Source: a virus
Taxonomy: Duplodnaviria; Caudoviricetes
DNA length: 64,000 bases
Strand: one strand, 5' to 3'
Virus record (IMG/VR): IMGVR_UViG_3300028800_000089
Coordinates: 2,194 to 66,193 of that record
The translations under genes and the position numbers were made by a program. The notes under the pieces are model-generated. The model had not been told where the DNA came from, searched no databases, and saw only the letters and a program-made list of their open reading frames with translations. Below, piece by piece: positions 18,831-30,035 of the stretch (the stretch's first letter is position 1; each line of letters opens with the position of its first letter).

Positions 18831-19508
18831 GTGGCACCACTGAAATTACATAATCAAAAATTCGGAAAATTAATCGTGTTAGATAAAGCGCCAAAAATTC
18901 CAACCCGTAACGGTAAGACTTTTGGTAAAACCCAATGGATCTGTAAGTGTGACTGCGGAAAAATTAGAGTAGTAGACGGTTCAGCCCTAACAACCGGTCA
19001 TACAACATCATGCGGGTGTAACTGGAGCACGGCAGAAAGACGTTCTGAGATTTCTGTTAGAAATACCTCGCACGGTAAAAGCAAAACGAGAATTTATAGT
19101 ATTTGGAGACACATGATAGAACGTTGCGAGAAGCCTAACACAGAAAATTATGCTAGATACGGCGCCCGGGGTATAACGGTCTGTGAACGGTGGCATAATT
19201 TTGAGAATTTTTATGAAGATATGAGTTCTACATACAGCGATGAACTGACATTAGATAGAAGAGATGTCCACGGTAATTACGAGCCCCTGAATTGTAGGTG
19301 GGCCACAAACGCCGAGCAAGCTCAGAATACTACGAAAAATAGATATTACGACTATAACGGCGAGAAACTTTGCCTCATGGAAATAGTGCGGCGCAAGAGG
19401 CTATATTCATATGCAACTGTACACAATAGATTAAAAAACGGTATGACTTTAGATGATGCTTTAAACAAACCCTTGCGCGGTTCTGTTAAGTTTGGTCAGG
19501 CCGGATGA
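18831..19508 (+). CDS. free-standing HNH-type homing endonuclease-like protein
   Basis: KFGKL.V...W.C.CDCG...SCGC, W..M..RC...YG.RGI.VC.RW, TLDR.D..GNY.P.NCRWAT; visibly AT-richer than flanks. Confidence 0.85.
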   Translation: MAPLKLHNQKFGKLIVLDKAPKIPTRNGKTFGKTQWICKCDCGKIRVVDGSALTTGHTTSCGCNWSTAERRSEISVRNTSHGKSKTRIYSIWRHMIERCEKPNTENYARYGARGITVCERWHNFENFYEDMSSTYSDELTLDRRDVHGNYEPLNCRWATNAEQAQNTTKNRYYDYNGEKLCLMEIVRRKRLYSYATVHNRLKNGMTLDDALNKPLRGSVKFGQAG

Positions 19509-21198
19509 ATGAGTTAGCCAAATCCGGCCATGCTCCGGTGGCGTGATAGATCGCCATTACAGCGTAGTTAGTAGCGTTGACTATATCGTCTGTACGGCGT
19601 GACAGTCTTTTAACAAGTCGTCTTGGCGATCCACTCGGGCTATCAGTGGATTCCTCGATGATGTTTAGGAAATCCTTGAGATGATCATCAAGATATCGCG
19701 GGTCATTGGGAAGTCTTACTAAGCCTCTCTTAATTAGTTCGCAGAGTAGGAGTAGACTGCGGGGTTTATCTAGTGTGTAGCTGGAGCGGACGCCACGAAC
19801 TTGTGGAGGATTGTAGTAGACGATCGGTCTATTATTGGCCATTACCGCGTATGTAAACGGTACTATTTTGTCAGCTGGCCAACCGGCCGATAGAATCATA
19901 CTCTCCCGTACGTTGCCTTGACCGCCTGCATCCAGAGCTAGATATGCAGAACGGCTTGCCATTGCTGATCTAACAATCACTTCTGTTTCGCCATTGATGT
20001 CCATAGTATATGGAGTCTTGTAATACCAGGAGATGTCCACGACTCCGGTAGGAGTCAGATTGGCTATGGCAATTGCTGTGTTGCTAATGAAGTCATCCGT
20101 GTCAGAGGACTTTTCTTTACCCTTACCACCGAAGTCTACCCCGATGGTTGTCATGATTGACGGAACCGTATGGGTTAACTCCGGTGGTACAGAAAGTGCT
20201 GTCGCGGCATTTCTCAACTCCTCTGCCGTAATTAGTTTAGAACCGCTGTCAAAGGCCAGTCCAAGAATCTCATTATAGAACTGGTATACAGGTTTCTCCT
20301 TTCTGAAATCTGTTATGATTCTCCAGTTCTTCGGCAGATCGTAATGCATCGGCAGAATGGGTTGACTAACATGATAGCCAGCAAATGATTTGACGCGGCT
20401 AGGAAAGTCATGGATAAACCGTCCGAGACGGCTATTAATGGGTTTCTTACATTTCGCACAGGACAGCGTGGTCTCACCGACCATCTCCAGGAGATCGCCG
20501 GGGACAGTACCACGGTTCAGGTGACCGCAACTCACGTTGTGACACGGTATATGCCAGACCCCTTGCGAGCTGTCTTCCCAGAGCAGGCTGAGTGTGTTAT
20601 CGAAGGTCTTCGGAGTTCCAGTATATTTGACGAGCTTATAGGGACTTGCAGACATACCACTTTCTATGATTGGTAAGTCCGAGGTGTCTAAGTCAGCGAC
20701 CTCATCGGCTAGAATAGCATCAAGGTTCAGACCACGGAGTCTATCGGGGTCACCTTGTGAGTAACCATAGAACAGACTCGACATATTGGCTAGCGTCCGT
20801 TGGAGGACGTTGTCAATGTTTGACTCGCCTCTGAACAAGGAGTCCCTAAATGGTGAGCCAGAGATGAACGGTCTGACGTAGTTCTGACTGAACCGCCGAA
20901 CCTGTTCGTACAGTGGGGTAACGGTCAACTGGTTGAAGTGTGGGATAAGCGCCGCCATGATGATCTGCGACGCAGCCAATGACGTACTTTTACTACACTG
21001 TCTTCCGGTCTTCCAGACCATCCTTCGCGGTATATTTTTCAGGTGATACAGCGGCTCAAACATGAAGTGGCTATACTCCAGGCTGTACGGCTTGTTCTTC
21101 AACCTGAAGATCAGCGGCAGCAACGGGACTATGCTTCCATTGGGGTCGTTGGCCAGAATCCTATTCAGTAATCCAAGAAACTCTTTAGTCGGCAACAT
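19486..21198 (-). CDS. terL: terminase large subunit (GpA-like)
   Basis: Walker A-like KTGRQCSKST, Walker B ILADEV, GTP coupling motif, Cys-rich linker, NEILG, RNase H-like IGVDFGG and C-terminal DD. Confidence 0.85.
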   Translation of the reverse strand: MLPTKEFLGLLNRILANDPNGSIVPLLPLIFRLKNKPYSLEYSHFMFEPLYHLKNIPRRMVWKTGRQCSKSTSLAASQIIMAALIPHFNQLTVTPLYEQVRRFSQNYVRPFISGSPFRDSLFRGESNIDNVLQRTLANMSSLFYGYSQGDPDRLRGLNLDAILADEVADLDTSDLPIIESGMSASPYKLVKYTGTPKTFDNTLSLLWEDSSQGVWHIPCHNVSCGHLNRGTVPGDLLEMVGETTLSCAKCKKPINSRLGRFIHDFPSRVKSFAGYHVSQPILPMHYDLPKNWRIITDFRKEKPVYQFYNEILGLAFDSGSKLITAEELRNAATALSVPPELTHTVPSIMTTIGVDFGGKGKEKSSDTDDFISNTAIAIANLTPTGVVDISWYYKTPYTMDINGETEVIVRSAMASRSAYLALDAGGQGNVRESMILSAGWPADKIVPFTYAVMANNRPIVYYNPPQVRGVRSSYTLDKPRSLLLLCELIKRGLVRLPNDPRYLDDHLKDFLNIIEESTDSPSGSPRRLVKRLSRRTDDIVNATNYAVMAIYHATGAWPDLANSFIRPDQT

Positions 21199-22788: not shown

Positions 22789-23889
22789 ATGCCAGAGCCT
22801 ATTGCGGTTGCGCTAGGCGACATCCACTTGGACCCGAAGATATGGTCCAGTATAGACGCTGTAAGAGGAGACGCTGAGCTGGGTTACAGCGAATTCATTA
22901 GAGTGGCTCTTCAATTAGGAGTGCCACCAGTGATTGTCGGTGACCTGTTTGACACCACAAAGCCTACCCCGGACCTCGTAGCGATTCATCGGCGCCAAAT
23001 GGATCGCTGTCAGAAAGCTGGAGTCCCAGCGTACTTCATTCAGGGCAATCATGACCTCCAATCAACACCCTGGGCTAGTGCCCTACATGACTGGCCCAAG
23101 TACGTTGGCTCCGGGGAACCGTTTCAGTTAGGTCGTCGGATGGCCCTGGGATTCGATTACAGCCACAAAGAAGACATCAAGGCCTCACTAGAGGGGTCAC
23201 AGAAGAAACTCTTTCCTAGCGACGGGAAATGCCTCCTGTTCCTCCATCAGGCCGTTAGGCAAGCCCTGGGCTTCGAGAATGCCTGGAACTGTGACTTGGA
23301 CTGGATCCCGGAACAGTTCGGACTGACAGTAATTGGCGATATCCATAAAACGTTGGATTTCGAATTATCAAGTAACCGGAAAGCCTGCTATACCGGTTCC
23401 GGTCATGCCAGGGATATCACACAGATCGGGCCTAAGAGCTGCATCGTCATAAATGACGATTTGTCATATTACCGGCACCCCATGGCTTTTAGGCATATCA
23501 AGAAGTTCGTCGTCGTAGACGAAAAAGGTCTCGCTGACGTCCAGAGCTGGCTGTCTGAGGCGTGTGCTTCAGAAGAAGCTGGCCCTCTCCTACCATTTGC
23601 CTGGATCCACCATAGTCCGGAGCTGAATTCTGCTTTCAGTGATATCTACAAACAATTCGTTGAAACACGAAAGGCCATCATCCACCGAGACAAGGTCTTG
23701 GACATCCAAGATGCTGAAGAACTAGAGATCTCTCAGGATACTGAAGACATCTCTATTCCAGCATTGCTAAATACATTAGTAAGTTCCGACAAAGAGCCGG
23801 AACTACATAGCTTCTTATTACACCTCCTTGAACCAACCTCTAACCCAGTCGATGTACTCCTAAAAAAGAGAGAATCCGTCAATGCCTGA
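22789..23889 (+). CDS. sbcD: SbcD/Mre11-like nuclease subunit
   Basis: metallophosphoesterase motifs GDIH, GDLFD, GNHD, HQ, GDIH, Y.GS; SbcC partner downstream. Confidence 0.85.
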   Translation: MPEPIAVALGDIHLDPKIWSSIDAVRGDAELGYSEFIRVALQLGVPPVIVGDLFDTTKPTPDLVAIHRRQMDRCQKAGVPAYFIQGNHDLQSTPWASALHDWPKYVGSGEPFQLGRRMALGFDYSHKEDIKASLEGSQKKLFPSDGKCLLFLHQAVRQALGFENAWNCDLDWIPEQFGLTVIGDIHKTLDFELSSNRKACYTGSGHARDITQIGPKSCIVINDDLSYYRHPMAFRHIKKFVVVDEKGLADVQSWLSEACASEEAGPLLPFAWIHHSPELNSAFSDIYKQFVETRKAIIHRDKVLDIQDAEELEISQDTEDISIPALLNTLVSSDKEPELHSFLLHLLEPTSNPVDVLLKKRESVNA

Positions 23890-25396
23890 TCTAGTCTTAG
23901 TTCGCTCCGAGGAAATGACTCGCGAGCAACTCCGTGGTATCGGTCTTCGGGTCTACGGTGAGCCACAATATGGTGGCCACTTCGTTGCCCGTGAAGCATT
24001 ACTTGTCAAAATCGGTGAATCCGGTCGTAGAGTCAACGGTACCAATATCGTAGAATCCGGAGCTGCAACATACCGTGTCGCCAATATTGTGTTCCGCGAT
24101 GGCTCCAAAGCCGTAGCAACTGTTGATCCTAATTCGGTTCGTTTGATCCAATGGGGTGTCGTCCGTGGTGGCGATGTCGGTATGCTGAACCGTGTCGAGT
24201 GGCCGAAGATCCTGAAGAACACGTTGGTCCCCGTTATCAACCGCGATATCGTCATCGACGTTCCTCACGGTGAATACGGCTGTGTCGCACACAATACCGT
24301 TGAAACCGTATTCAAGGTCCACGTCTGGGGCAGCCCGGAACCGCGAAACGGAGACGAGGAAGCGTATAACCCACCACGGACTCTATGGGGCCACAGACTG
24401 CCAACGGGCGACCGTATGTCAGCGGGTCTCTGGACCGAGGGTGTCAACGTCATTTCACCGGAGTCACCGGCCGACAAGCCCATTGCGTGTTTCGACGAGG
24501 GTAACCTCTATATCTACGCCGATCTCTGTCATACCGATAGCACCCCAGAAGTGCATATCTTCGGTGAGATCATCAAGTTCGTAGCCGCCAATTATGCTGC
24601 CGCAAAGGGCAGAGTCGATGATCCCGTGGTTATGCGCAACAATTACGTCAACTTAGTCGAGAAGCGTAAGGCCCTCCAGGTCCGCGAGTTCACGAACGAG
24701 TTGGAAAGTGTCAGAAGCCACCTTCACGATCTGAATCGTGACGTAGTCGTGCAGATCCGCGAGGAGAAGCGTATCCTCAAGGATCTCTCTGCGTTAGACA
24801 ATGATGACGCATTCAATATCGAGCGGTTCGCCTCGGAGTACGATCGTCTCGTAGCCAACCCGTTGATTAAGTCCGTTAAGATGATGAACGGTAACATCAC
24901 GGTGCGCACCAACACGCTGTGCGTCACTGACCCCCGGACGAGCATCGAACACGAAGTCGGTCGGATGATGATTCACTTGGATATCAAGCGGTACAACGTC
25001 GTTGTAACGAACTTGGATCGCCAGGTCCATGGATTGCAGAGCAACATGCATGGCCCACATGTGTTCGCCAATGGCCGTATGTGCCTCGGCAACATGGAAG
25101 AGGTTCTACCGAAGCTCGTTGCCCAGTATCAATTAGCGGATGCTATTGAGCTAGTAGTTGCCATTCTCCAGACCTGCAATGTCGATGACCCAGCAGGCCG
25201 GAAGGTCAATTGCTGGCCATTATCGGAGAAGCAGAAAGCTAAAGATGCCGCAGCGAAGGCTGAAGCCAAGCGCCTCGCGAAAGCAGTTAAGACCGATGGC
25301 ACCATTGAAGTTGATACCAGAGCGACAGTTGATGATGGCATGTTAGATGGTACCGAAGAAGACGTCACTACACCAGTTCCAGAGGCAGCATTCTGA
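23882..25396 (+). CDS. multi-domain protein with C-terminal prokaryotic E2 (UBC-fold)-like domain, module 1
   Basis: HGPHVFANGRMCLGN (putative catalytic Cys401) resembles HPN...G.ICL of E2 enzymes; adjacent to JAB, E1 and Ubl genes. Confidence 0.7.
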   Translation: MPDLVLVRSEEMTREQLRGIGLRVYGEPQYGGHFVAREALLVKIGESGRRVNGTNIVESGAATYRVANIVFRDGSKAVATVDPNSVRLIQWGVVRGGDVGMLNRVEWPKILKNTLVPVINRDIVIDVPHGEYGCVAHNTVETVFKVHVWGSPEPRNGDEEAYNPPRTLWGHRLPTGDRMSAGLWTEGVNVISPESPADKPIACFDEGNLYIYADLCHTDSTPEVHIFGEIIKFVAANYAAAKGRVDDPVVMRNNYVNLVEKRKALQVREFTNELESVRSHLHDLNRDVVVQIREEKRILKDLSALDNDDAFNIERFASEYDRLVANPLIKSVKMMNGNITVRTNTLCVTDPRTSIEHEVGRMMIHLDIKRYNVVVTNLDRQVHGLQSNMHGPHVFANGRMCLGNMEEVLPKLVAQYQLADAIELVVAILQTCNVDDPAGRKVNCWPLSEKQKAKDAAAKAEAKRLAKAVKTDGTIEVDTRATVDDGMLDGTEEDVTTPVPEAAF

Positions 25397-26133
25397 TGTT
25401 CAATCCGCACAAGTTCGAGACCACTGTACTAGGCGTCCCATCGGTAAAGGTTTCGTTTAGGGCAGCAGTAGACATGTGGACATTAACTGACTTAGTCAAC
25501 ACCGAAGTCGGTTGGTTGACTACGGCGCGCATGGTCAAGGAACCCAATGAGACCGTCATCTACGTTGATGACGTCTACTTGTTCAAGCAGCAGGTTCACT
25601 CGACGACTACGGAGCTGACATCCGAGGGTCTGTCGATGCTGGGTACCCAATTGATTGCCGAGGACCAAGCTGCTGGTGTTGATCCCACGTTGTGGCGAGC
25701 CAACAACCTCCGGGGCTATTTCCATAGTCACGTCCACATGGACGTCATGCCCTCCGGACAGGATGAGCAGCAGACCATCGATTTCCGCGACAAGTACGAG
25801 TATCCCTGGGTCCTTCGGGGTATCGTCAATAAGAAGCACAAGATGAAGCTCGATCTGTATTGGTTCGAGCGCGATATGGTCATCAACGATATCGACTGGG
25901 AAATCGATTATACCACCTTCGGTGACCGCAAGGAACACTGGGGCAAGGAAATCGAGAGCCTCGTCGAATCGTTGTATTCAGCGAATAAGAGCACTCCTAT
26001 TTCGTATCCCGTCGGTAATTTTACGGATCCCCATCGTGGTCCGTCGGAATTCAGGCGTCTCGGGGAGTTTGCTCCGAATAGCACTCGTCACTACGGACAG
26101 CCATCGCTAGTTGGCTACCATCATGGCGACTAA
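25396..26133 (+). CDS. JAB/MPN+ metallopeptidase, module 1
   Basis: EVGW...HSHVHMDVMPSGQD matches E...H-x-H-x7-S-x2-D. Confidence 0.88.
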   Translation: MFNPHKFETTVLGVPSVKVSFRAAVDMWTLTDLVNTEVGWLTTARMVKEPNETVIYVDDVYLFKQQVHSTTTELTSEGLSMLGTQLIAEDQAAGVDPTLWRANNLRGYFHSHVHMDVMPSGQDEQQTIDFRDKYEYPWVLRGIVNKKHKMKLDLYWFERDMVINDIDWEIDYTTFGDRKEHWGKEIESLVESLYSANKSTPISYPVGNFTDPHRGPSEFRRLGEFAPNSTRHYGQPSLVGYHHGD

Positions 26134-26824
26134 TCTCACTGATACCATTCGACATCTCAAGGTCTTCTCACCGGTCAAGTTCGACAATACCAGAATCGAT
26201 GTAATCGGCGTAGGTGCCACTGGCAGTCGTATTGCCATGGCCCTTGCCAAGCTCGGTGTCCTGAACCTGCATATCTGGGATTTCGACAAGGTCGAGTCCC
26301 ACAATATTGCGAATCAAATTTATGGGAACAATGATATCGGCAAGTTCAAGGTAGACGCCTTAGCCGATCTCATCAAGGCCCAGACCAATTTAGACGTGAC
26401 CAAGCACAACGAGGCCGTCAATGGTCGTTCCGCGCTGGGTTCCGTTGTATTCCTGCTTACCGATACGATGTCTTCCCGGAAGGAGATCTGGGAAGGCGCG
26501 ATTAGGTATAAGCCATTTATTGAAGTCATGTTCGAGACCCGCATGGGTATCGACCTAGGCAGGACCTATTGGGTGCGCCCAACCTCGCCTGATGACGTCA
26601 AATTCTGGGAGTCCACGCTCTGCGGCGACGAAGAAGTCGTTGTTGTCAGTGCCTGTGGATCACAAATTACCGTTGGTTCCACTGCCGAGATCGTTAGCGG
26701 TCTCGCGGTGTGGAACTTCATTAATTGGTTCAATTGGTATTCTGACACGACCAATAAGGTCGAGCAGATGCCGAAAGAGACAATTTTTGGTGTAACTCCC
26801 CCAGCTATCCTAACCCGTTCGTAA
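26123..26824 (+). CDS. ThiF/E1-like adenylating enzyme, module 1
   Basis: GVGATG, DFDKVESHNIANQ, K.KV, LTD and a distal SACG cysteine. Confidence 0.92.
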   Translation: MATNLTDTIRHLKVFSPVKFDNTRIDVIGVGATGSRIAMALAKLGVLNLHIWDFDKVESHNIANQIYGNNDIGKFKVDALADLIKAQTNLDVTKHNEAVNGRSALGSVVFLLTDTMSSRKEIWEGAIRYKPFIEVMFETRMGIDLGRTYWVRPTSPDDVKFWESTLCGDEEVVVVSACGSQITVGSTAEIVSGLAVWNFINWFNWYSDTTNKVEQMPKETIFGVTPPAILTRS

Positions 26825-26835
26825 GAAAGAATCCC

Positions 26836-27042
26836 ATGAATATCACCATCGGCAAGTTCCCCGGCACCTCCATCCGTTCCATCGTCCTCCCCGAGGGCGC
26901 CAAGGTCCGTGATGCCCTAGCGGCCTCAGGCATTGACAGCACCGGCTTCGACATCCGTATCAATGGCAGCGCCGGCACTGTTGACAGCCCGGTTTCTGAA
27001 GGTAATGCTGTTCTCTTGACCCAGAAGATCAAGAGCAACTAA
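26836..27042 (+). CDS. single-domain ubiquitin-like (ThiS/MoaD beta-grasp) protein ending KIKSN
   Basis: 68 aa; LPEGAKVRDAL...IRING...V.EG..V.L pattern; directly after E1. Confidence 0.8.
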   Translation: MNITIGKFPGTSIRSIVLPEGAKVRDALAASGIDSTGFDIRINGSAGTVDSPVSEGNAVLLTQKIKSN

Positions 27043-27045
27043 CCC

Positions 27046-29367
27046 GTGATTTTGACGCGATTACAAACGACAAACTGGGGCTGCCTGAAGTCCGTAGATA
27101 TCCGGTTCAGCGAAGGCTTGACCGGTATTCTAGGGCCTAATGGCAGTGGTAAATCGACGCTACTCGATGCGCTTCGATTTGCCGTTACCGGTGAGTCAGT
27201 CGCGTCAGGACCACGAGCTGACAATATCACCTTGGGCGAACGTACTGGATCAGTTACGTTGGCGTTCGCCCACGGGGATAGCAGCTACGAGGTTAAGCGC
27301 GTTCTAGAGCCGTCGCGGCAGCAATTGAAGTTTCCCGGTGGAACCGTTAGTCGGCAGGCTGAGATCGAGGAGAAGCTCACGCTTCTTCTCGGTACCAGAA
27401 TGGATGCGTTGCTCAACAACGTGTTCATCGCCCAACACGATATCGACGCCATTCTATTCAAGACCAATACCGAGAGACTCCGGGAGTTCCAGGACACCTT
27501 CGGCTTATCCAAGGCCGCTGAGGTATACACCCTGCTGTCCACTGAGATCTCCTCGCTAAGCGTCACCACTGGGCTGGAGCAGCAATTACAGGTTACCGCC
27601 GGAGCATGCCAAGACGTTACCAAGGAACTCAACGAATTACGGGAACAGCTCCGCCTCACTGAGGACGAGCTGTTGGAATTGTCGAAGTACGAGGAGAGGT
27701 TGAGGCATTACAGAATAGCTCAGCAAAGCGCATCAGCTAAACGGCAAACCGAAGAGGCTCTTTCCCTGGCGCAGCAGCGCTATATAGAGTCCGACAAGGT
27801 TCTGGGTATAGCCAAGGATGAGCACGCCATTATTGTGCAGCGCTTCACAGCGATGCAGCCAATGGCAGCCGAGCAGGCCAAGGAGCTGGATCAAGCCAAG
27901 GCTACAGCAGCACAGCGCCGACTATTGGATAGCGAGCGCCATAATCTTGAATCCAATAAGATGAAGCCAGAAGCTGAACTGGGTAGTCATGATGAGCTAA
28001 TCAATAAGCTCTCAGAAACCCGTTCTAAGCTCAAGGCTATTATCGGTAAAGAAGCGCCTCTCCCGCAGACGCCCGAAGATAAGGATCTCGCTCAAAGAGT
28101 CGAGGAGCTGACGAAGCAATTGTCGGAGCTTCGACGCGATGATCCCAATTTGGCACTTATAGAAGCTGACATCCACCGGATCAAGCACGAACTCGAAACG
28201 TTCGCCGGTGGTCAGTGTCCTACGTGTCATCGTCCCATTGATAATTTCGACGACGCCGAGTTGAAGCGCCAAGCACAGGTTAAGCAAGTAGAGATTGCGA
28301 AGATCAAAAGTGATCAAGCCAAAAGAGTAGCTGAAGCGCAGAATGATTTGGCAGTTATTTCGAAGCGATTAGAAGAGCGTCGTAAAGCCGCGATGACAGC
28401 TGTCATCAATATGCTTGAGGCGACTAAGAAGCAATACGACAAGCTCGTGTCAGACAAGAATGCGCTGACACAGCAATGGGAGACCTATAACAGGTGTCAT
28501 GCCAGATTGAGTGCTATTCGCGCCCAGCTGGACAGCACCCCAGATGTAGGTACCGATAAAATAGAAGCGCTCCAGAAGGCTGTGGAGCAATTCAGGGCAC
28601 TACAGGATCAAGTTCAGAAATCGGAGTCTGAGGTTCGTATTAAGCAAGCAGCCCAAGCGTCTTGTACGTCAGAGGTTACAAGGCTCAAGGATTTGTTGCT
28701 TAAGGTCAGTGATAGCAAGTTCGAGTTGTCCGAAGCTGAGTTGCAAGAGGCTCAACTGAAGATTGAGTTATTGTCTGCGCGGACACAAACTCGGAACGAG
28801 CTAACTACGAAGATTGGCATTACTGATGCCAAGCTGATCCAGCTCCGGAGTTCCGTGGATCAATTGAAGAAGCAGTACGACCACGAGCGCAATGCCGCCA
28901 AGTGGTCGTCACTGTGCTCAAGAGCCAGGGAGGTCGTTCACGTTAACGGCTTACCGGCTCTGATGATGCGGGAGTATGCCAATAAGATCAACAAGCGCAT
29001 GGCGCACTACATGTCGATCTGGGAGGCCCCGTTTCAATTCTACCTGGATGGCGACCTGTCGTTTAAAGCCAAGTTCAGTAGTGGCTTTGAGCTACCGGCG
29101 CACCGGTTAAGCGGTGGTCAGAAGATTGTTGCCAGTACTAGTTTCAGGCTGGCGATGTCCGATACCTTCGCACGGTCAGTTGGACTGTTGATACTCGACG
29201 AGCCAACGAACCATTTAGATGAAAGTAACGTTGTGCATTTGCAGCAATTGTTACTCAAATTAAAGCAGTTTTCCGGGAGTACCGGAAGACAGATACTGAT
29301 TGTAACCCACGCTGAATCACTAACCAGCTTCTTTGATCAAACCATCAAATTAGCTAAAAAGGAATAA
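27046..29367 (+). CDS. sbcC: SbcC/Rad50-like SMC ATPase
   Basis: GPNGSGKST, Q-loop, coiled coils with central CPTC Zn hook, LSGGQ, LILDEPT, VTH. Confidence 0.93.
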   Translation: MILTRLQTTNWGCLKSVDIRFSEGLTGILGPNGSGKSTLLDALRFAVTGESVASGPRADNITLGERTGSVTLAFAHGDSSYEVKRVLEPSRQQLKFPGGTVSRQAEIEEKLTLLLGTRMDALLNNVFIAQHDIDAILFKTNTERLREFQDTFGLSKAAEVYTLLSTEISSLSVTTGLEQQLQVTAGACQDVTKELNELREQLRLTEDELLELSKYEERLRHYRIAQQSASAKRQTEEALSLAQQRYIESDKVLGIAKDEHAIIVQRFTAMQPMAAEQAKELDQAKATAAQRRLLDSERHNLESNKMKPEAELGSHDELINKLSETRSKLKAIIGKEAPLPQTPEDKDLAQRVEELTKQLSELRRDDPNLALIEADIHRIKHELETFAGGQCPTCHRPIDNFDDAELKRQAQVKQVEIAKIKSDQAKRVAEAQNDLAVISKRLEERRKAAMTAVINMLEATKKQYDKLVSDKNALTQQWETYNRCHARLSAIRAQLDSTPDVGTDKIEALQKAVEQFRALQDQVQKSESEVRIKQAAQASCTSEVTRLKDLLLKVSDSKFELSEAELQEAQLKIELLSARTQTRNELTTKIGITDAKLIQLRSSVDQLKKQYDHERNAAKWSSLCSRAREVVHVNGLPALMMREYANKINKRMAHYMSIWEAPFQFYLDGDLSFKAKFSSGFELPAHRLSGGQKIVASTSFRLAMSDTFARSVGLLILDEPTNHLDESNVVHLQQLLLKLKQFSGSTGRQILIVTHAESLTSFFDQTIKLAKKE

Positions 29368-29369
29368 CC

Positions 29370-30035
29370 ATGTCTATCGCCATCACTCTCGAACTAAACG
29401 GCAACCGCGAGGTTCGCGAGGTTTCGTATGTCACCAATGTCAGCGATCTGCTGAACGCACTGTCGCTATCGCGTGGCTCAGTCGTGCGCGTCAACGGGAC
29501 CGAGGCCAGCATCGGCAGCCCCGTGCGTCACGGTGACTTCGTTCAGATTTCCGTCGTAGCCGTGGCCCCGGTCGCTGCGACGACCCCAGGCGGTAAGGTC
29601 CTGTTCATCAACAATGATGGTGCAGGCTTCGCTGACCCGGTTGCTTTCGCGGCCGGTACCAATCTCGGTCAGTTCATCGCTGAGCGTGATATCTCCATTT
29701 CCGGCAAGATGATTCGCGTCAACAACAACCTGGCCGATGCCGGCTACGTTCTCCGTGACGGTGATAAGATCTCGGTTACCCCGCTCAAGGTCGAGGGTGC
29801 CGTGGAGATGATCAAGGTCCTGTACATCAACAACGACGGTTCAGGTTTCGCTGAGCCAGTGCAGGCTATTTCGGGCGTCACGCTGTTCCAGTTCCTTGCT
29901 CAGCAGGGCTCTGATCCGGCCGGCAAGATGGTCCGTCTGAACAACGATATCGCTGCCGGGACGACCGTGCTGCGTAACGGTGACAAGATCTCCGTTACCC
30001 CGCTCAAGGTCGAGGGTGCCGGTTCGCGTAATTAA
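29370..30035 (+). CDS. three-domain polyubiquitin-like precursor
   Basis: three beta-grasp-like units; units 2 and 3 both end GDKISVTPLKVEGA; GSRN tail. Confidence 0.85.
   Translation: MSIAITLELNGNREVREVSYVTNVSDLLNALSLSRGSVVRVNGTEASIGSPVRHGDFVQISVVAVAPVAATTPGGKVLFINNDGAGFADPVAFAAGTNLGQFIAERDISISGKMIRVNNNLADAGYVLRDGDKISVTPLKVEGAVEMIKVLYINNDGSGFAEPVQAISGVTLFQFLAQQGSDPAGKMVRLNNDIAAGTTVLRNGDKISVTPLKVEGAGSRN
29775..30021 (+). repeat. identical 28-nt repeats encoding the Ubl C-termini
   Basis: GTTACCCCGCTCAAGGTCGAGGGTGCCG at 29775-29802 and 29994-30021 (219 nt = 73 codons apart). Confidence 0.9.

What the first reader, a model, noticed from the sequence alone, without database searches (positions are those of the whole stretch)
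26836..27042. Module-1 Ubl ends in KIKSN with no terminal glycine
Seen in sequence: the C-terminus is AAG AGC AAC TAA (K-S-N). The Ser codon is one transition from GGC (Gly) at the position equivalent to the Gly of KVEGA in the poly-Ubl. Established: E1 enzymes normally adenylate a C-terminal Gly. Inference: this could be a non-canonical Ser-terminated modifier, a non-conjugatable decoy that blocks host E1/JAB defence enzymes, a recent inactivating mutation, or a sequencing error.
Basis: partly seen in the sequence, partly recalled or inferred. Interest (0 to 1): 0.7.

Follow-up and report, generated by a model that had tools for sequence, protein, structure and literature searches.

The report
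Phage ubiquitin-like tag ending Ser-Asn
A small phage gene encodes a ubiquitin-like tag whose tail ends in Ser-Asn where ubiquitin has Gly-Gly; the odd tail is conserved rather than an error, so the neighbouring enzymes probably handle a tag with no terminal glycine.

Summary
ORF 26836-27042 (+) encodes 68 aa ending K-I-K-S-N, then TAA.

It is neither a sequencing error nor a private mutation:
- All 4 homologues found (59-80% identity) keep KIKSN.
- The Ser codon is AGC in two loci and AGT in a third.
- Gene-wide dN/dS is 0.17-0.33.
- Contigs from three other runs show no difference at the site.

The protein models as a beta-grasp (pLDDT 87). It is the tag of an E2-JAB-E1-Ubl cassette whose catalytic motifs are intact.

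A profile search places it in a large, unnamed family with 554 representatives, often in tandem. Their tail is K-[IV]-K-G-N.

ThiS, MoaD and SAMP alignments put Asn68 where the reactive Gly sits, and Ser67 at the penultimate Gly. So the Ser is a clade-fixed change of a near-invariant Gly, and the terminal Asn is a family-wide trait.

My best reading is a working modifier with a non-Gly end. Whether Asn68 or Ser67 is the activated residue remains open.

Earlier notes of this scan describe the same Gly-Asn cassette on other DNA.

The parts
26836..27042 (+). Ubl gene: 68 aa plus TAA, a beta-grasp tag with tail K64-I65-K66-S67-N68
   Evidence: ORF; fold; homologues; dN/dS 0.17-0.33
27034..27039 (+). 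Codons AGC (Ser67) and AAC (Asn68). Ser replaces the family's near-invariant Gly. Asn is the family's conserved last residue.
26111..26824 (+). E1-like adenylating enzyme (ThiF family), about 233-237 aa, with the likely true start at ATG 26123. A single adenylation domain with an invariant Ser-Ala-Cys-Gly.
   Evidence: Pfam ThiF 4.9e-17; PADLOC E1-E2 2.2e-16
25396..26133 (+). JAB/JAMM peptidase with motifs E-V-G-W and H-S-H-V-H-M-x3-P-S-G-Q-D
   Evidence: (Prok-JAB, weak, E 0.061)
23882..25396 (+). 504-aa protein whose C-terminal domain (24821-25222) is UBC/E2-like, with H-G-P-H-V...G-R-M-C-L-G-N
27046..29367 (+). SbcC/Rad50-like ATPase. Its start lies 3 nt after the Ubl stop. Context only.
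29370..30035 (+). Three-domain poly-Ubl of module 2 (KVEGA tails), used here to set the tail register

Best explanation
The ORF is a real, expressed-looking ubiquitin-like tag. It belongs to a phage-borne four-gene cassette: a protein with an E2 domain, a JAB peptidase, a short E1, and the Ubl. It is a member of a large uncharacterised Ubl family whose tail reads Lys-[Ile/Val]-Lys-Gly-Asn. In the register of ThiS, MoaD, SAMP and ubiquitin, the final Asn takes the place of the reactive last Gly, and the Gly before it takes the place of ubiquitin's Gly75. In this phage clade that penultimate Gly has become Ser and is fixed. I infer that the tag still works. The adjacent E1 binds it, adenylates the carboxylate of Asn68 and passes it to the invariant E1 Cys. 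It then goes to the E2 Cys and on to target amines. The JAB cuts precursors after Asn, as in the relative with a 30-aa extension or in tandem forms, and probably reverses conjugates. Ser67, together with clade-specific changes beside the E1 Cys and in the crossover loop, may insulate the phage's pair from Gly-Asn-type cassettes of bacteria. Shown: sequence, conservation, fold, family tail, register, cassette synteny, intact motifs. Inferred: every enzymatic step, which residue is activated, and the insulation idea.
For: The gene is real and constrained.
- KIKSN is invariant in 5 of 5 clade members.
- The Ser codon is AGC or AGT, and dN/dS is 0.17-0.33.
- Three other assemblies agree at the site.

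The fold is a beta-grasp. The model has pLDDT 87. Its best matches are SAMP1, MoaD, ThiS, TtuB and ubiquitin (VIA Z up to 9.8).

The family is large and has a defined tail.
- 554 representatives score E<=1e-3.
- Of 228 domain tails aligned at position 67: Gly 221, Ser 6 (this clade plus P0146), Asn 1.
- Position 68 is Asn in all 212 tails aligned there.

The register puts Asn at the reactive place.
- Pfam ThiS places the terminal Asn on its last position in 5 of 5 hits, and P0103 scores above the gathering cut-off.
- PDB ThiS and SAMP2 alignments agree.
- So do the VIA ranges: model 1-68 to ThiS 1-66, 2-68 to MoaD 1-81.
- The Gly of KVEGA falls on position 68 (the ThiS and MoaD hits agree).

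Conservation stops after Asn. At 102 internal junctions, position 69 takes 14 different residues. 56 of 119 Gly-Asn proteins end exactly at Asn.

The cassette is orthologous. E2-JAB-E1-Ubl stand in the same order in L009-L013, with E1 matches of E 1e-72 to 1e-78.

The catalytic motifs are intact in the Ser clade: JAB E...HSH...SGQD, E2 PH...C-L-G, and E1 GxGxxG, DxD, TDT..R and S-A-C-G. The E2 domain's top 50 VIA rows are all UBC/UEV folds, Z 6.0-7.1.

There are precedents for E1-type enzymes acting on non-Gly ends.
- The Cap2 substrate of E. cloacae ends ...GRFA (passage).
- MccB is the best PDB match of the E1 profile: 2.5e-8, against 1.6e-6 for NEDD8 E1.

E1+Ubl co-fold gave weak support only.
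- Score 0.33, against 0.00 for the best of 3 controls.
- The mark was reached by 58 of 80 solved complexes and 2 of 110 mismatched pairs.
- At 0.60 or under, only 7 of those 80 reached it, as did both mismatches that passed.
- The runs agree in at least 65% of contacts, and the partner's pLDDT is at least 81.
- E1-Ubl complexes are solved, so the pass may come from memory.
Against: - No experiment bears on any member of this family, and no RNA or protein data are available here.
- Gly67 is the most conserved tail residue in the family. In the one tested bacterial system with a Gly-Ala end, the JAB cuts after Gly and removes the last residue. By analogy Asn could be a one-residue cap, which would make Ser67 the reactive end.
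- The register rests on weak alignments of a flexible tail. Most ThiS hits have E 1e-3 to 0.1, and the model's last eight residues average pLDDT 70.
- The counts are biased. The profile was built from Ser-Asn sequences, so tails ending Gly-Ala or Gly-Gly were trimmed and not counted.
- The E1 family has Asn where ThiF, MoeB and MccB have the ATP-binding Arg of the N-x-x-R-Q motif, so adenylation activity is not assured.
- The MccB similarity covers only the Rossmann part and leads the next hit by about 6 bits.
- Gly to Leu at the reactive Gly abolishes the Bil system, which shows how sensitive such tails can be.
Confidence: 0.45

Rival explanations
1. Ser-terminated modifier. The JAB removes Asn68, and any extension, as a cap. 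The E1 then adenylates Ser67, so the tag is conjugated through a C-terminal serine with a tail one residue shorter than in ThiS or ubiquitin.
For: Position 67 is the most conserved tail residue (Gly in 221 of 228), as expected for a reactive residue. E. aridi BilC cuts Gly97|Ala98 and removes a single capping residue (passages). About half of the Gly-Asn proteins carry further residues after Asn that must be removed anyway (63 of 119). The 98-aa relative needs cutting near this site. The JAB motifs are intact.
Against: The register evidence puts position 68, not 67, at the reactive place. The cap would be unusually conserved: Asn in all 212 tails aligned at position 68, while position 69 is free to vary. 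A JAB that also cleaves Lys isopeptides is not expected to demand Asn at P1' (inference). Family variants ending exactly in Gly-Gly (P0030, P0065) read more naturally with the second Gly as the end.
Confidence: 0.22
2. Non-conjugated binder. The protein is a decoy, inhibitor, adaptor or regulatory subunit that docks on an E1, JAB or E2, either the phage's own or a host Gly-Asn-type system, without being transferred.
For: The Gly that is nearly universal in the family is lost. A substitution at the reactive Gly kills a Bil system. Bacterial MAG contigs carry orthologous cassettes whose E1 is about 50% identical, so a phage protein could meet host enzymes of this kind. The tail would stay conserved if it plugs an active site.
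Against: The phage keeps a full enzyme set with every catalytic motif next to the gene in 3 of 3 loci with DNA. A decoy needs none of these. A second, independent Gly-to-Ser case exists in a Gly-Ala background (P0146...SKSA), which suggests that Ser is tolerated at this place. Module 2 has its own JAB and E1, so module-1 enzymes would lack a substrate.
Confidence: 0.18
3. MccB-like chemistry. The E1 activates the terminal Asn, which cyclises to a succinimide and is nucleotidylated or otherwise modified. The product is a tag with a modified C-terminus rather than a thioester relay.
For: Terminal Asn is the hallmark of MccA substrates, and MccB works through a succinimide (passages). MccB and PaaA are the best PDB sequence matches of the E1 and of its family profile. 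For the module-2 E1, which serves a Gly tail, UBA5 and ThiF come first.
Against: The E1 has no N-terminal peptide-clamp domain: GxGxxG starts near residue 30 of about 235. The substrate is a folded domain. An E2 with a conserved Cys and an invariant E1 Cys are present. Family members with Ala or Gly instead of Asn cannot form the succinimide. The similarity margin is small and limited to the Rossmann part.
Confidence: 0.08
4. Artefact or decaying gene: a sequencing or assembly error, or a pseudogenised tag.
For: Only that AGC is one transition from GGC.
Against: Three other assemblies agree at the site. Five of 5 clade members keep Ser, with a synonymous codon difference and purifying selection. 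Homologous proteins are seen on up to 8 contigs each.
Confidence: 0.02

Closest known systems
Type I/II Bil (BilABCD) bacterial ubiquitination operons, e.g. Ensifer aridi and Collimonas
   Same: Both have four separate parts: a Ubl, an E2 with a catalytic Cys, a JAB peptidase and an E1. Ubls may have one to three beta-grasp domains. The JAB pre-processes the Ubl tail.
   Different: BilA has a universally conserved reactive Gly. Here the reactive place holds Asn and the residue before it is Ser. BilD is a two-domain E1 with a mobile Cys domain, with residue numbers up to about 500. This E1 has about 235 aa and one domain. No PADLOC, NCBIfam or Pfam model other than generic ThiF or Cap2-type E1 models hits the cassette. 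This cassette is encoded by a phage, between sbcD and sbcC.
ThiS/MoaD with ThiF/MoeB, and archaeal SAMPs
   Same: The same fold, the same length from the last strand to the C-terminus, and a short homodimer-type E1.
   Different: Those tails end in Gly-Gly, and they have no E2 and usually no JAB. They carry sulfur; the SAMPs also conjugate.
MccA/MccB (microcin C) and PaaA
   Same: An E1-superfamily enzyme that activates a C-terminal Asn. These are the best solved-structure sequence matches of this E1.
   Different: MccB has an RRE peptide clamp and a 7-aa substrate, and forms no thioester. Here the substrate is a folded Ubl, and an E2 and a JAB are present.
Type II CBASS Cap2/Cap3
   Same: The E1 domain is the best PADLOC match. 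The Cap2 of E. cloacae acts on a terminal Ala, so Gly is not obligatory. Cap3 is a JAB that cuts after the last residue.
   Different: Cap2 is an E2-E1 fusion, and its substrate is a CD-NTase rather than a Ubl.
Eukaryotic polyubiquitin precursors
   Same: The wider family is mostly made of head-to-tail repeats that share one tail motif and often carry one extra residue after the last repeat.
   Different: This protein has a single domain, and the repeat ends in Gly-Asn (here Ser-Asn) rather than Gly-Gly.

Membership tests
Ubiquitin-like beta-grasp (ThiS/MoaD/Ub superfamily) | beta-beta-alpha-beta-beta-beta grasp fold | tested here: met
   AF2 pLDDT 87 with strands and helix in that order. Foldseek gives SAMP1, Caldiarchaeum Ub, TtuB and NEDD8 at E 1e-4 to 1e-2. 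VIA gives Z 7.4-9.8 to RnfH, SAMP1, MoaD and ThiS.
Ubiquitin-like beta-grasp (ThiS/MoaD/Ub superfamily) | C-terminal Gly or Gly-Gly as the activated end | tested here: not met
   The tail is Ser67-Asn68, conserved in 5 of 5 clade members.
Ubiquitin-like beta-grasp (ThiS/MoaD/Ub superfamily) | Pfam ThiS model above the gathering score | tested here: not met
   The window protein hits only Ub-RnfH at E 0.031, below the cut-off. One family member (P0103) passes ThiS at 24.0 bits against a cut-off of 22.5.
Unnamed K-[IV]-K-G-N Ubl family of E2-JAB-E1-Ubl cassettes | profile match and cassette order | tested here: met
   The profile of the clade finds 554 representatives. Loci L009-L013 hold E2, JAB and E1 orthologues in the same order.
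Unnamed K-[IV]-K-G-N Ubl family of E2-JAB-E1-Ubl cassettes | Gly at tail position 67 | tested here: not met
   Ser here. Gly in 221 of 228 aligned tails.
Unnamed K-[IV]-K-G-N Ubl family of E2-JAB-E1-Ubl cassettes | Asn at tail position 68 | tested here: met
   Asn68. Asn in all 212 aligned tails, although tails ending in Ala or Gly were trimmed by the aligner.
Bil (BilABCD) | separate Ubl, E2, JAB and E1 genes | tested here: met
Bil (BilABCD) | universally conserved reactive Gly in the Ubl | tested here: not met
   The papers state it. Here neither of the last two residues is Gly.
Bil (BilABCD) | E1 with inactive and active adenylation domains and a Cys domain | tested here: not met
   The E1 has about 235 aa, one Rossmann-type domain and no insertion. 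The BilD architecture is as described.
Bil (BilABCD) | hit to defence-system models | tested here: not met
   PADLOC 2.0.0 gives only Cap2-type E1-E2 models for the two E1s and nothing for the Ubl, E2 or JAB.
Bil (BilABCD) | anti-phage defence function | not testable with these tools
   The cassette is on a phage record, with terminase at 19486-21198 and an IMG/VR record.
MccA/MccB-type peptide nucleotidylation | C-terminal Asn substrate | tested here: met
   Asn68. The MccA end is as described.
MccA/MccB-type peptide nucleotidylation | N-terminal RRE peptide-clamp domain on the enzyme | tested here: not met
   The E1 alignment starts about 25 residues before GxGxxG. MccB matches only from its residue 110 onward.
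Type II CBASS Cap2/Cap3 | E2-E1 fusion with a CD-NTase substrate | tested here: not met
   E2 and E1 are separate genes. No CD-NTase family appears among the 10 neighbours scanned.

The most novel reading that the evidence does not exclude
The whole Gly-Asn family, this Ser-Asn clade included, is activated and conjugated through a C-terminal asparagine by a short E1 whose nearest solved relative is MccB. That would make it a ubiquitin-like system without any reactive glycine. It might use or have to suppress Asn-succinimide chemistry. The phage's Ser67, together with co-varying E1 residues, would form a pair that is orthogonal to Gly-Asn cassettes of bacteria.
Probability: 0.35. Interest if true: 0.8.

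Novelty: new variant of a known kind. Interest (0 to 1): 0.58.

Why it matters
A C-terminal Gly is treated as obligatory for ubiquitin-like conjugation. In the passages I read, the Bil papers call it universally conserved and show that changing it abolishes function.

Here a large natural family, common in big uncultured phages and in MAG contigs, keeps Asn at that place. One phage clade has also lost the Gly before it, yet keeps intact E1, E2 and JAB genes.

If these tags are conjugated, the chemical rules for E1 and JAB recognition are wider than assumed. Phages would then carry their own, possibly insulated, tagging systems.

If they are not conjugated, this would be a natural phage-encoded inhibitor of such systems.

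Either answer can be tested with four small proteins.

My searches found no paper on a Ubl with a Gly-Asn or Ser-Asn end. That covers only the held library, and supplements were closed.

Tried and rejected
Searches that did not help
- GenBank phages hold no relative of the Ubl (best E 2) and no relative of a three-domain family member. The E1 finds only distant ThiF-like genes at 33% identity or less.
- IMG/VR scans with P0006 and P0108 found nothing. A genome scan with P0007 found nothing.
- The listing of cluster members gave no names or accessions for 10 family members.
- The module-2 Ubl domain has no PDB sequence match. I therefore could not see the E. aridi BilA tail and rely on the paper's text for it.
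- Foldseek on the E2 domain gave no match at E<=0.001. I went on with the VIA second look.

Ideas rejected
- Read-through fusion of the Ubl to SbcC. The two ORFs share a frame in the window (27046-26836 = 210). In L001 the offset is 209 and in L007 it is 299, so the shared frame is chance.
- P0060 (1872 aa, repetitive) looks like a false hit. It gave no domain in my re-scan and was left out.

Counts to treat with care
- The regex count was too loose, with spurious Ser and Asn at position 67. I replaced it with the alignment-based count.
- In one search the regex took the second motif (KGN) of P0003, so that protein is filed under 'single GN >12'. Six proteins had no motif.

Other notes
- No RNA holder is listed for this stretch.
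- X6 gives no cover of the site.
Full report
**Observation**

The + strand ORF 26836-27042 has an ATG start behind a purine-rich stretch and 68 codons. It ends AAG AGC AAC TAA at 27031-27042, that is Lys66, Ser67, Asn68 and stop. The next gene, an SbcC/Rad50-like ATPase, starts at GTG 27046.

The window lies in an IMG/VR virus record of 66,193 bases that CheckV rates 36% complete. A large terminase-like ORF lies at 19486-21198.

**Is the serine real?**

A word-indexed search of 5.8 billion proteins returned the protein itself and four homologues of 59-80% identity. All four contain ...K-I-K-S-N. In three it is the C-terminus, and in P0003 (98 aa) 30 more residues follow. The last five residues are invariant in the five sequences.

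I had DNA for two relatives, L001 (the same contig as L006 and L008) and L007. The Ser codon is AGC in the window and in L007 but AGT in L001, which is a synonymous difference. Pairwise dN/dS for the gene is 0.33, 0.24 and 0.17.

Contigs assembled from three other public rhizosphere runs (X3, X4, X5) span 27029-27065 with no difference there. The contig of X6 ends at 27027. These are contigs, not reads, and the runs may belong to one campaign. Even so, sequencing error and private mutation can be set aside.

**Fold**

With the five-sequence alignment, AlphaFold2 gives pLDDT 87 and pTM 0.71, with a beta-beta-alpha-beta-beta-beta order.

- Foldseek against the PDB lists Mth1743, Caldiarchaeum ubiquitin, SAMP1, TtuB, NEDD8, RnfH, MoaD and ThiS, at E 1.4e-4 to about 1e-2.
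- VIA-align gives Z 9.8 to RnfH, 9.5-9.6 to SAMP1, 8.1-8.2 to MoaD and 7.4-7.7 to ThiS.

The beta-grasp premise holds.

**The neighbours**

Upstream, on the same strand and tightly packed, lie three genes.

- **A 504-aa protein (23882-25396).** Its C-terminal 134 residues model with pLDDT 80, as a helix, four strands, a loop and helices. Foldseek gives only weak matches (best E 0.008, then UBC enzymes at 0.07-0.4). All 50 rows of the VIA second look are UBC, UEV or UFC1 folds with Z 6.0-7.1 over 101-117 residues. The loop carries H-G-P-H-V...G-R-M-C-L-G-N, and the Cys is invariant in six orthologues.
- **A 245-aa JAB peptidase (25396-26133).** It has E-V-G-W and H-S-H-V-H-M-D-V-M-P-S-G-Q-D. 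Pfam Prok-JAB matches only weakly, at E 0.061.
- **An E1 of about 235 aa (26111 or 26123 to 26824).** Pfam ThiF matches at 4.9e-17, and PADLOC Cap2-type E1-E2 models at up to 2.2e-16.

The order JAB, E1, Ubl, SbcC, poly-Ubl is the same in L001 and L007.

**The family**

A profile of the five sequences was read against 1.84 billion representatives. It found 554 proteins at E<=1e-3, 115 at <=1e-10 and 6 at <=1e-30. The best 150 were returned.

Most hold two to four tandem copies of the domain. I re-scanned 153 proteins, that is the 150 plus the clade and minus P0060, and found 295 domains.

- At profile position 67, of 228 aligned tails, Gly occurs 221 times, Ser 6 times and Asn once. The Ser cases are the five clade members and P0146 (...S-K-S-A). 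The Asn case is P0136.
- At position 68 all 212 aligned tails have Asn.
- The other 67 tails were trimmed by the aligner. Most of them visibly read Gly-Ala or Gly-Gly.

So the family tail is K-[IV]-K-G-N, with Gly-Ala and Gly-Gly as minor forms. The window's clade has replaced the Gly.

One caveat applies. The profile came from Ser-Asn sequences, so tails that differ at position 68 drop out of the count.

**Orthologous cassettes**

A scan of GTDB genomes with a tail pattern gave five loci in MAG contigs. Their record titles name Thermoanaerobaculia, Flavobacteriaceae, an unclassified bacterium and two Saccharibacteria.

Each holds, in the same order, an E2-domain protein (E 1e-29 to 1e-45 against the window's), a JAB (1e-26 to 1e-31), an E1 (1e-72 to 1e-78, 49-54% identity) and a Ubl ending in or containing K-I-K-G-N.

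Their flanks look cellular or mobile: a serine recombinase, TPR proteins, an O-antigen ligase, AAA_14/DUF4143 ATPases and Fpg. None shows an SbcCD match.

Module 1 of the phage is therefore the Ser-Asn version of a cassette that otherwise serves Gly-Asn tags. In the alignments the Ser clade keeps every motif that the Gly clade keeps.

The Ser clade differs in two places in the E1. Beside the invariant Cys it reads S-A-C-G-S-Q-I-T, against S-A-C-G-A-S-V-[ST]. In the crossover loop it reads T-L-C-G-D-E-E-V-V, against T-L-Y-[AD]-D-x-E-A, with a Cys for an invariant Tyr and one extra residue.

With three and four sequences on the two sides, this is a lead and not a demonstration of co-variation.

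**Which residue is the working end?**

Several independent alignments say otherwise.

- Family profiles align position 62 with Thr137 and Thr210 of the poly-Ubl. Without a gap, the Gly of KVEGA then falls on position 68 and the Glu before it on position 67.
- NCBIfam ThiS and MoaD hits on the poly-Ubl put that Gly on the last model position.
- Pfam ThiS (76 positions) aligns five Gly-Asn members so that Asn falls on position 76 in all five. P0103 reaches 24.0 bits, above the cut-off of 22.5.
- The family profile against PDB sequences aligns 17-67 with ThiS 11-65 of 66 and 20-66 with T. thermophilus ThiS 12-62 of 64. SAMP2 aligns in the same way.
- VIA ranges run from model 1-68 to ThiS 1-66, from 2-68 to MoaD 1-81 and from 1-68 to SAMP1 up to 87.

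So Asn68 sits where ThiS, MoaD, the SAMPs and, by the same count, ubiquitin have the reactive Gly. Ser67 sits at the penultimate Gly.

Two further observations fit a functional unit that ends with Asn.

- At 102 internal junctions of tandem proteins, positions 67 and 68 are Gly and Asn throughout, while position 69 takes 14 different residues.
- 56 of 119 Gly-Asn proteins, and 4 of 5 Ser-Asn proteins, end exactly at Asn.

The evidence against this reading is also real.

- The tail is flexible, and the model's last eight residues average pLDDT 70.
- Most ThiS matches are weak.
- In the one tested system with a Gly-Ala end, the JAB removes the last residue and the Gly is activated.

I put the Asn-end reading at about twice the Ser-end reading.

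**Can an E1 take a non-Gly end?**

Two precedents are in print.

- The construct used to crystallise E. cloacae Cap2 with its substrate tail ends ...T-G-R-F-A, so the activated residue is Ala (methods passage).

MccB (2.5e-8) and PaaA (4.8e-7) are the best solved-structure matches of the module-1 E1 family profile, ahead of NEDD8 E1 (1.6e-6) and ThiF (4.6e-6) (single sequence). The module-2 E1, which serves a Gly tail, matches UBA5 (1.7e-9) and ThiF (4e-8) first and MccB only at 4.4e-6.

The margin is a few bits and covers only the Rossmann part. This E1 also lacks MccB's N-terminal clamp domain, so I treat the similarity as a hint.

This E1 family has Asn where ThiF, MoeB and MccB have the Arg of N-x-x-R-Q. 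I could not test what that means for ATP binding.

**Binding**

A co-fold of the E1 alignment with the Ubl alignment gave weak support.

- The median score was 0.33 (runs 0.56, 0.33 and 0.00), against 0.00 for the best of three controls.
- The mark was reached by 58 of 80 solved complexes and 2 of 110 mismatched pairs.
- At 0.60 or under, only 7 of those 80 reached it, as did both mismatches that passed.
- The runs agree in at least 65% of contacts, and the partner's pLDDT is at least 81.
- E1-Ubl complexes have been solved, so the pass may reflect memory.

**The extended relative**

In L007 exactly 90 bases are inserted between AAC (Asn68) and TAA. They begin AAG GGC AAC, a near copy of the preceding AAG AGC AAC, so the protein reads ...K-I-K-S-N-K-G-N-K-K-V-K....

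Either the extension is cut off by the JAB, or the C-terminus of this tag need not be free. The canonical K-G-N next to K-S-N is striking, and I cannot explain it.

**Comparison with known systems**

The cassette works like a Bil operon but fails its membership tests.

- It has no conserved reactive Gly.
- It has a short one-domain E1 in place of the two-domain BilD.
- No defence-library model hits it.
- It sits in a phage.

It shares the fold and tail length of ThiS, MoaD and the SAMPs, but not their Gly-Gly. It shares the terminal Asn with MccA, but nothing else of that pathway.

The papers I saw, as passages only, were:

- 10.1101/2023.09.26.559546
- 10.1101/2023.09.04.556158
- PMC11601603
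- PMC11601596
- 10.1101/2022.03.31.486616
- PMC1779556
- PMC12250964

My six searches listed no paper on a Gly-Asn or Ser-Asn Ubl tail or on this phage cassette. Supplementary files, which may hold Ubl alignments, were closed.

**Earlier notes of this scan**

After I had reached this reading, look-ups showed that the scan had noted the same Gly-Asn cassette in other genomes. These include a note that the Asn looks like a working residue (e1-886601) and one on a 223-kb phage whose tag ends Ser-Asn (e1-5664081). Notes on this window describe the two modules. These are unchecked AI notes and I do not count them as evidence.

**Verdict**

The tag has no terminal Gly, and that is conserved and selected. 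The Ser, however, is most likely the penultimate residue, and the terminal Asn is a family-wide trait.

My odds are:

- Working modifier activated at Asn68: 0.45.
- Modifier activated at Ser67 after trimming: 0.22.
- Non-conjugated binder or decoy: 0.18.
- MccB-like end chemistry: 0.08.
- Artefact: 0.02.

I class it as a new variant of a known kind, with interest 0.58.

Noticed in passing
L007:1864-1953 (relative of window 27039/27040): An exact 90-nt in-frame insertion lies between the Asn68 codon and the stop. It begins AAG GGC AAC, a one-base variant of the preceding AAG AGC AAC, so the protein reads KSN-KGN followed by a basic, helix-like 24-aa tail. The protein (P0003) is on record from 4 contigs.
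   Followed up: partly
window 26111-26824 and L009-L013 E1 genes: The crossover loop of the E1 has an invariant Tyr in the four Gly-Asn cassettes (T-L-Y-[AD]-D) but Cys in the three Ser-Asn loci (T-L-C-G-D). The residues after the invariant Cys differ as well (G-S-Q-I-T against G-A-S-V-S/T). All of these E1s have Asn in place of the Arg of the N-x-x-R-Q ATP motif.
   Followed up: partly
L003:3301-6675 (and L002): A different large viral contig carries a small ORF ending ...V-V-V-K-T-A-A-A, a 540-aa protein, a JAB (H-S-H-V-Y-M-x3-P-S-G-V-D) and an E1 that is 29% identical to the window's. This may be another cassette whose tag lacks a terminal Gly. I did not test the fold of the small ORF.
   Followed up: no
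L009-L013: Gly-Asn cassettes sit in MAG contigs titled Thermoanaerobaculia, Flavobacteriaceae and Saccharibacteria, beside a serine recombinase, TPR proteins, AAA_14/DUF4143 ATPases and Fpg, and without SbcCD. In L012 and L013 the tag gene is longer (204 and 324 aa), with extra C-terminal domains after the K-G-N site.
   Followed up: partly
window 22789-30035: The module (E2, JAB, E1, Ubl) is inserted between sbcD-like and sbcC-like genes, and the poly-Ubl follows sbcC. This arrangement is kept in L001 and L007 but is absent from the MAG cassettes.
   Followed up: partly
window 26836 and 27046: The Ubl and sbcC share a reading frame in the window, separated by TAA CCC. In L001 and L007 they do not, so this appears to be coincidence.
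   Followed up: yes
P0060: An 1872-aa, highly repetitive Ala/Pro/Arg-rich protein scored E 2.8e-16 against the Ubl profile with 12 stretches but gave no domain in my re-scan. It is probably a compositional false hit.
   Followed up: partly
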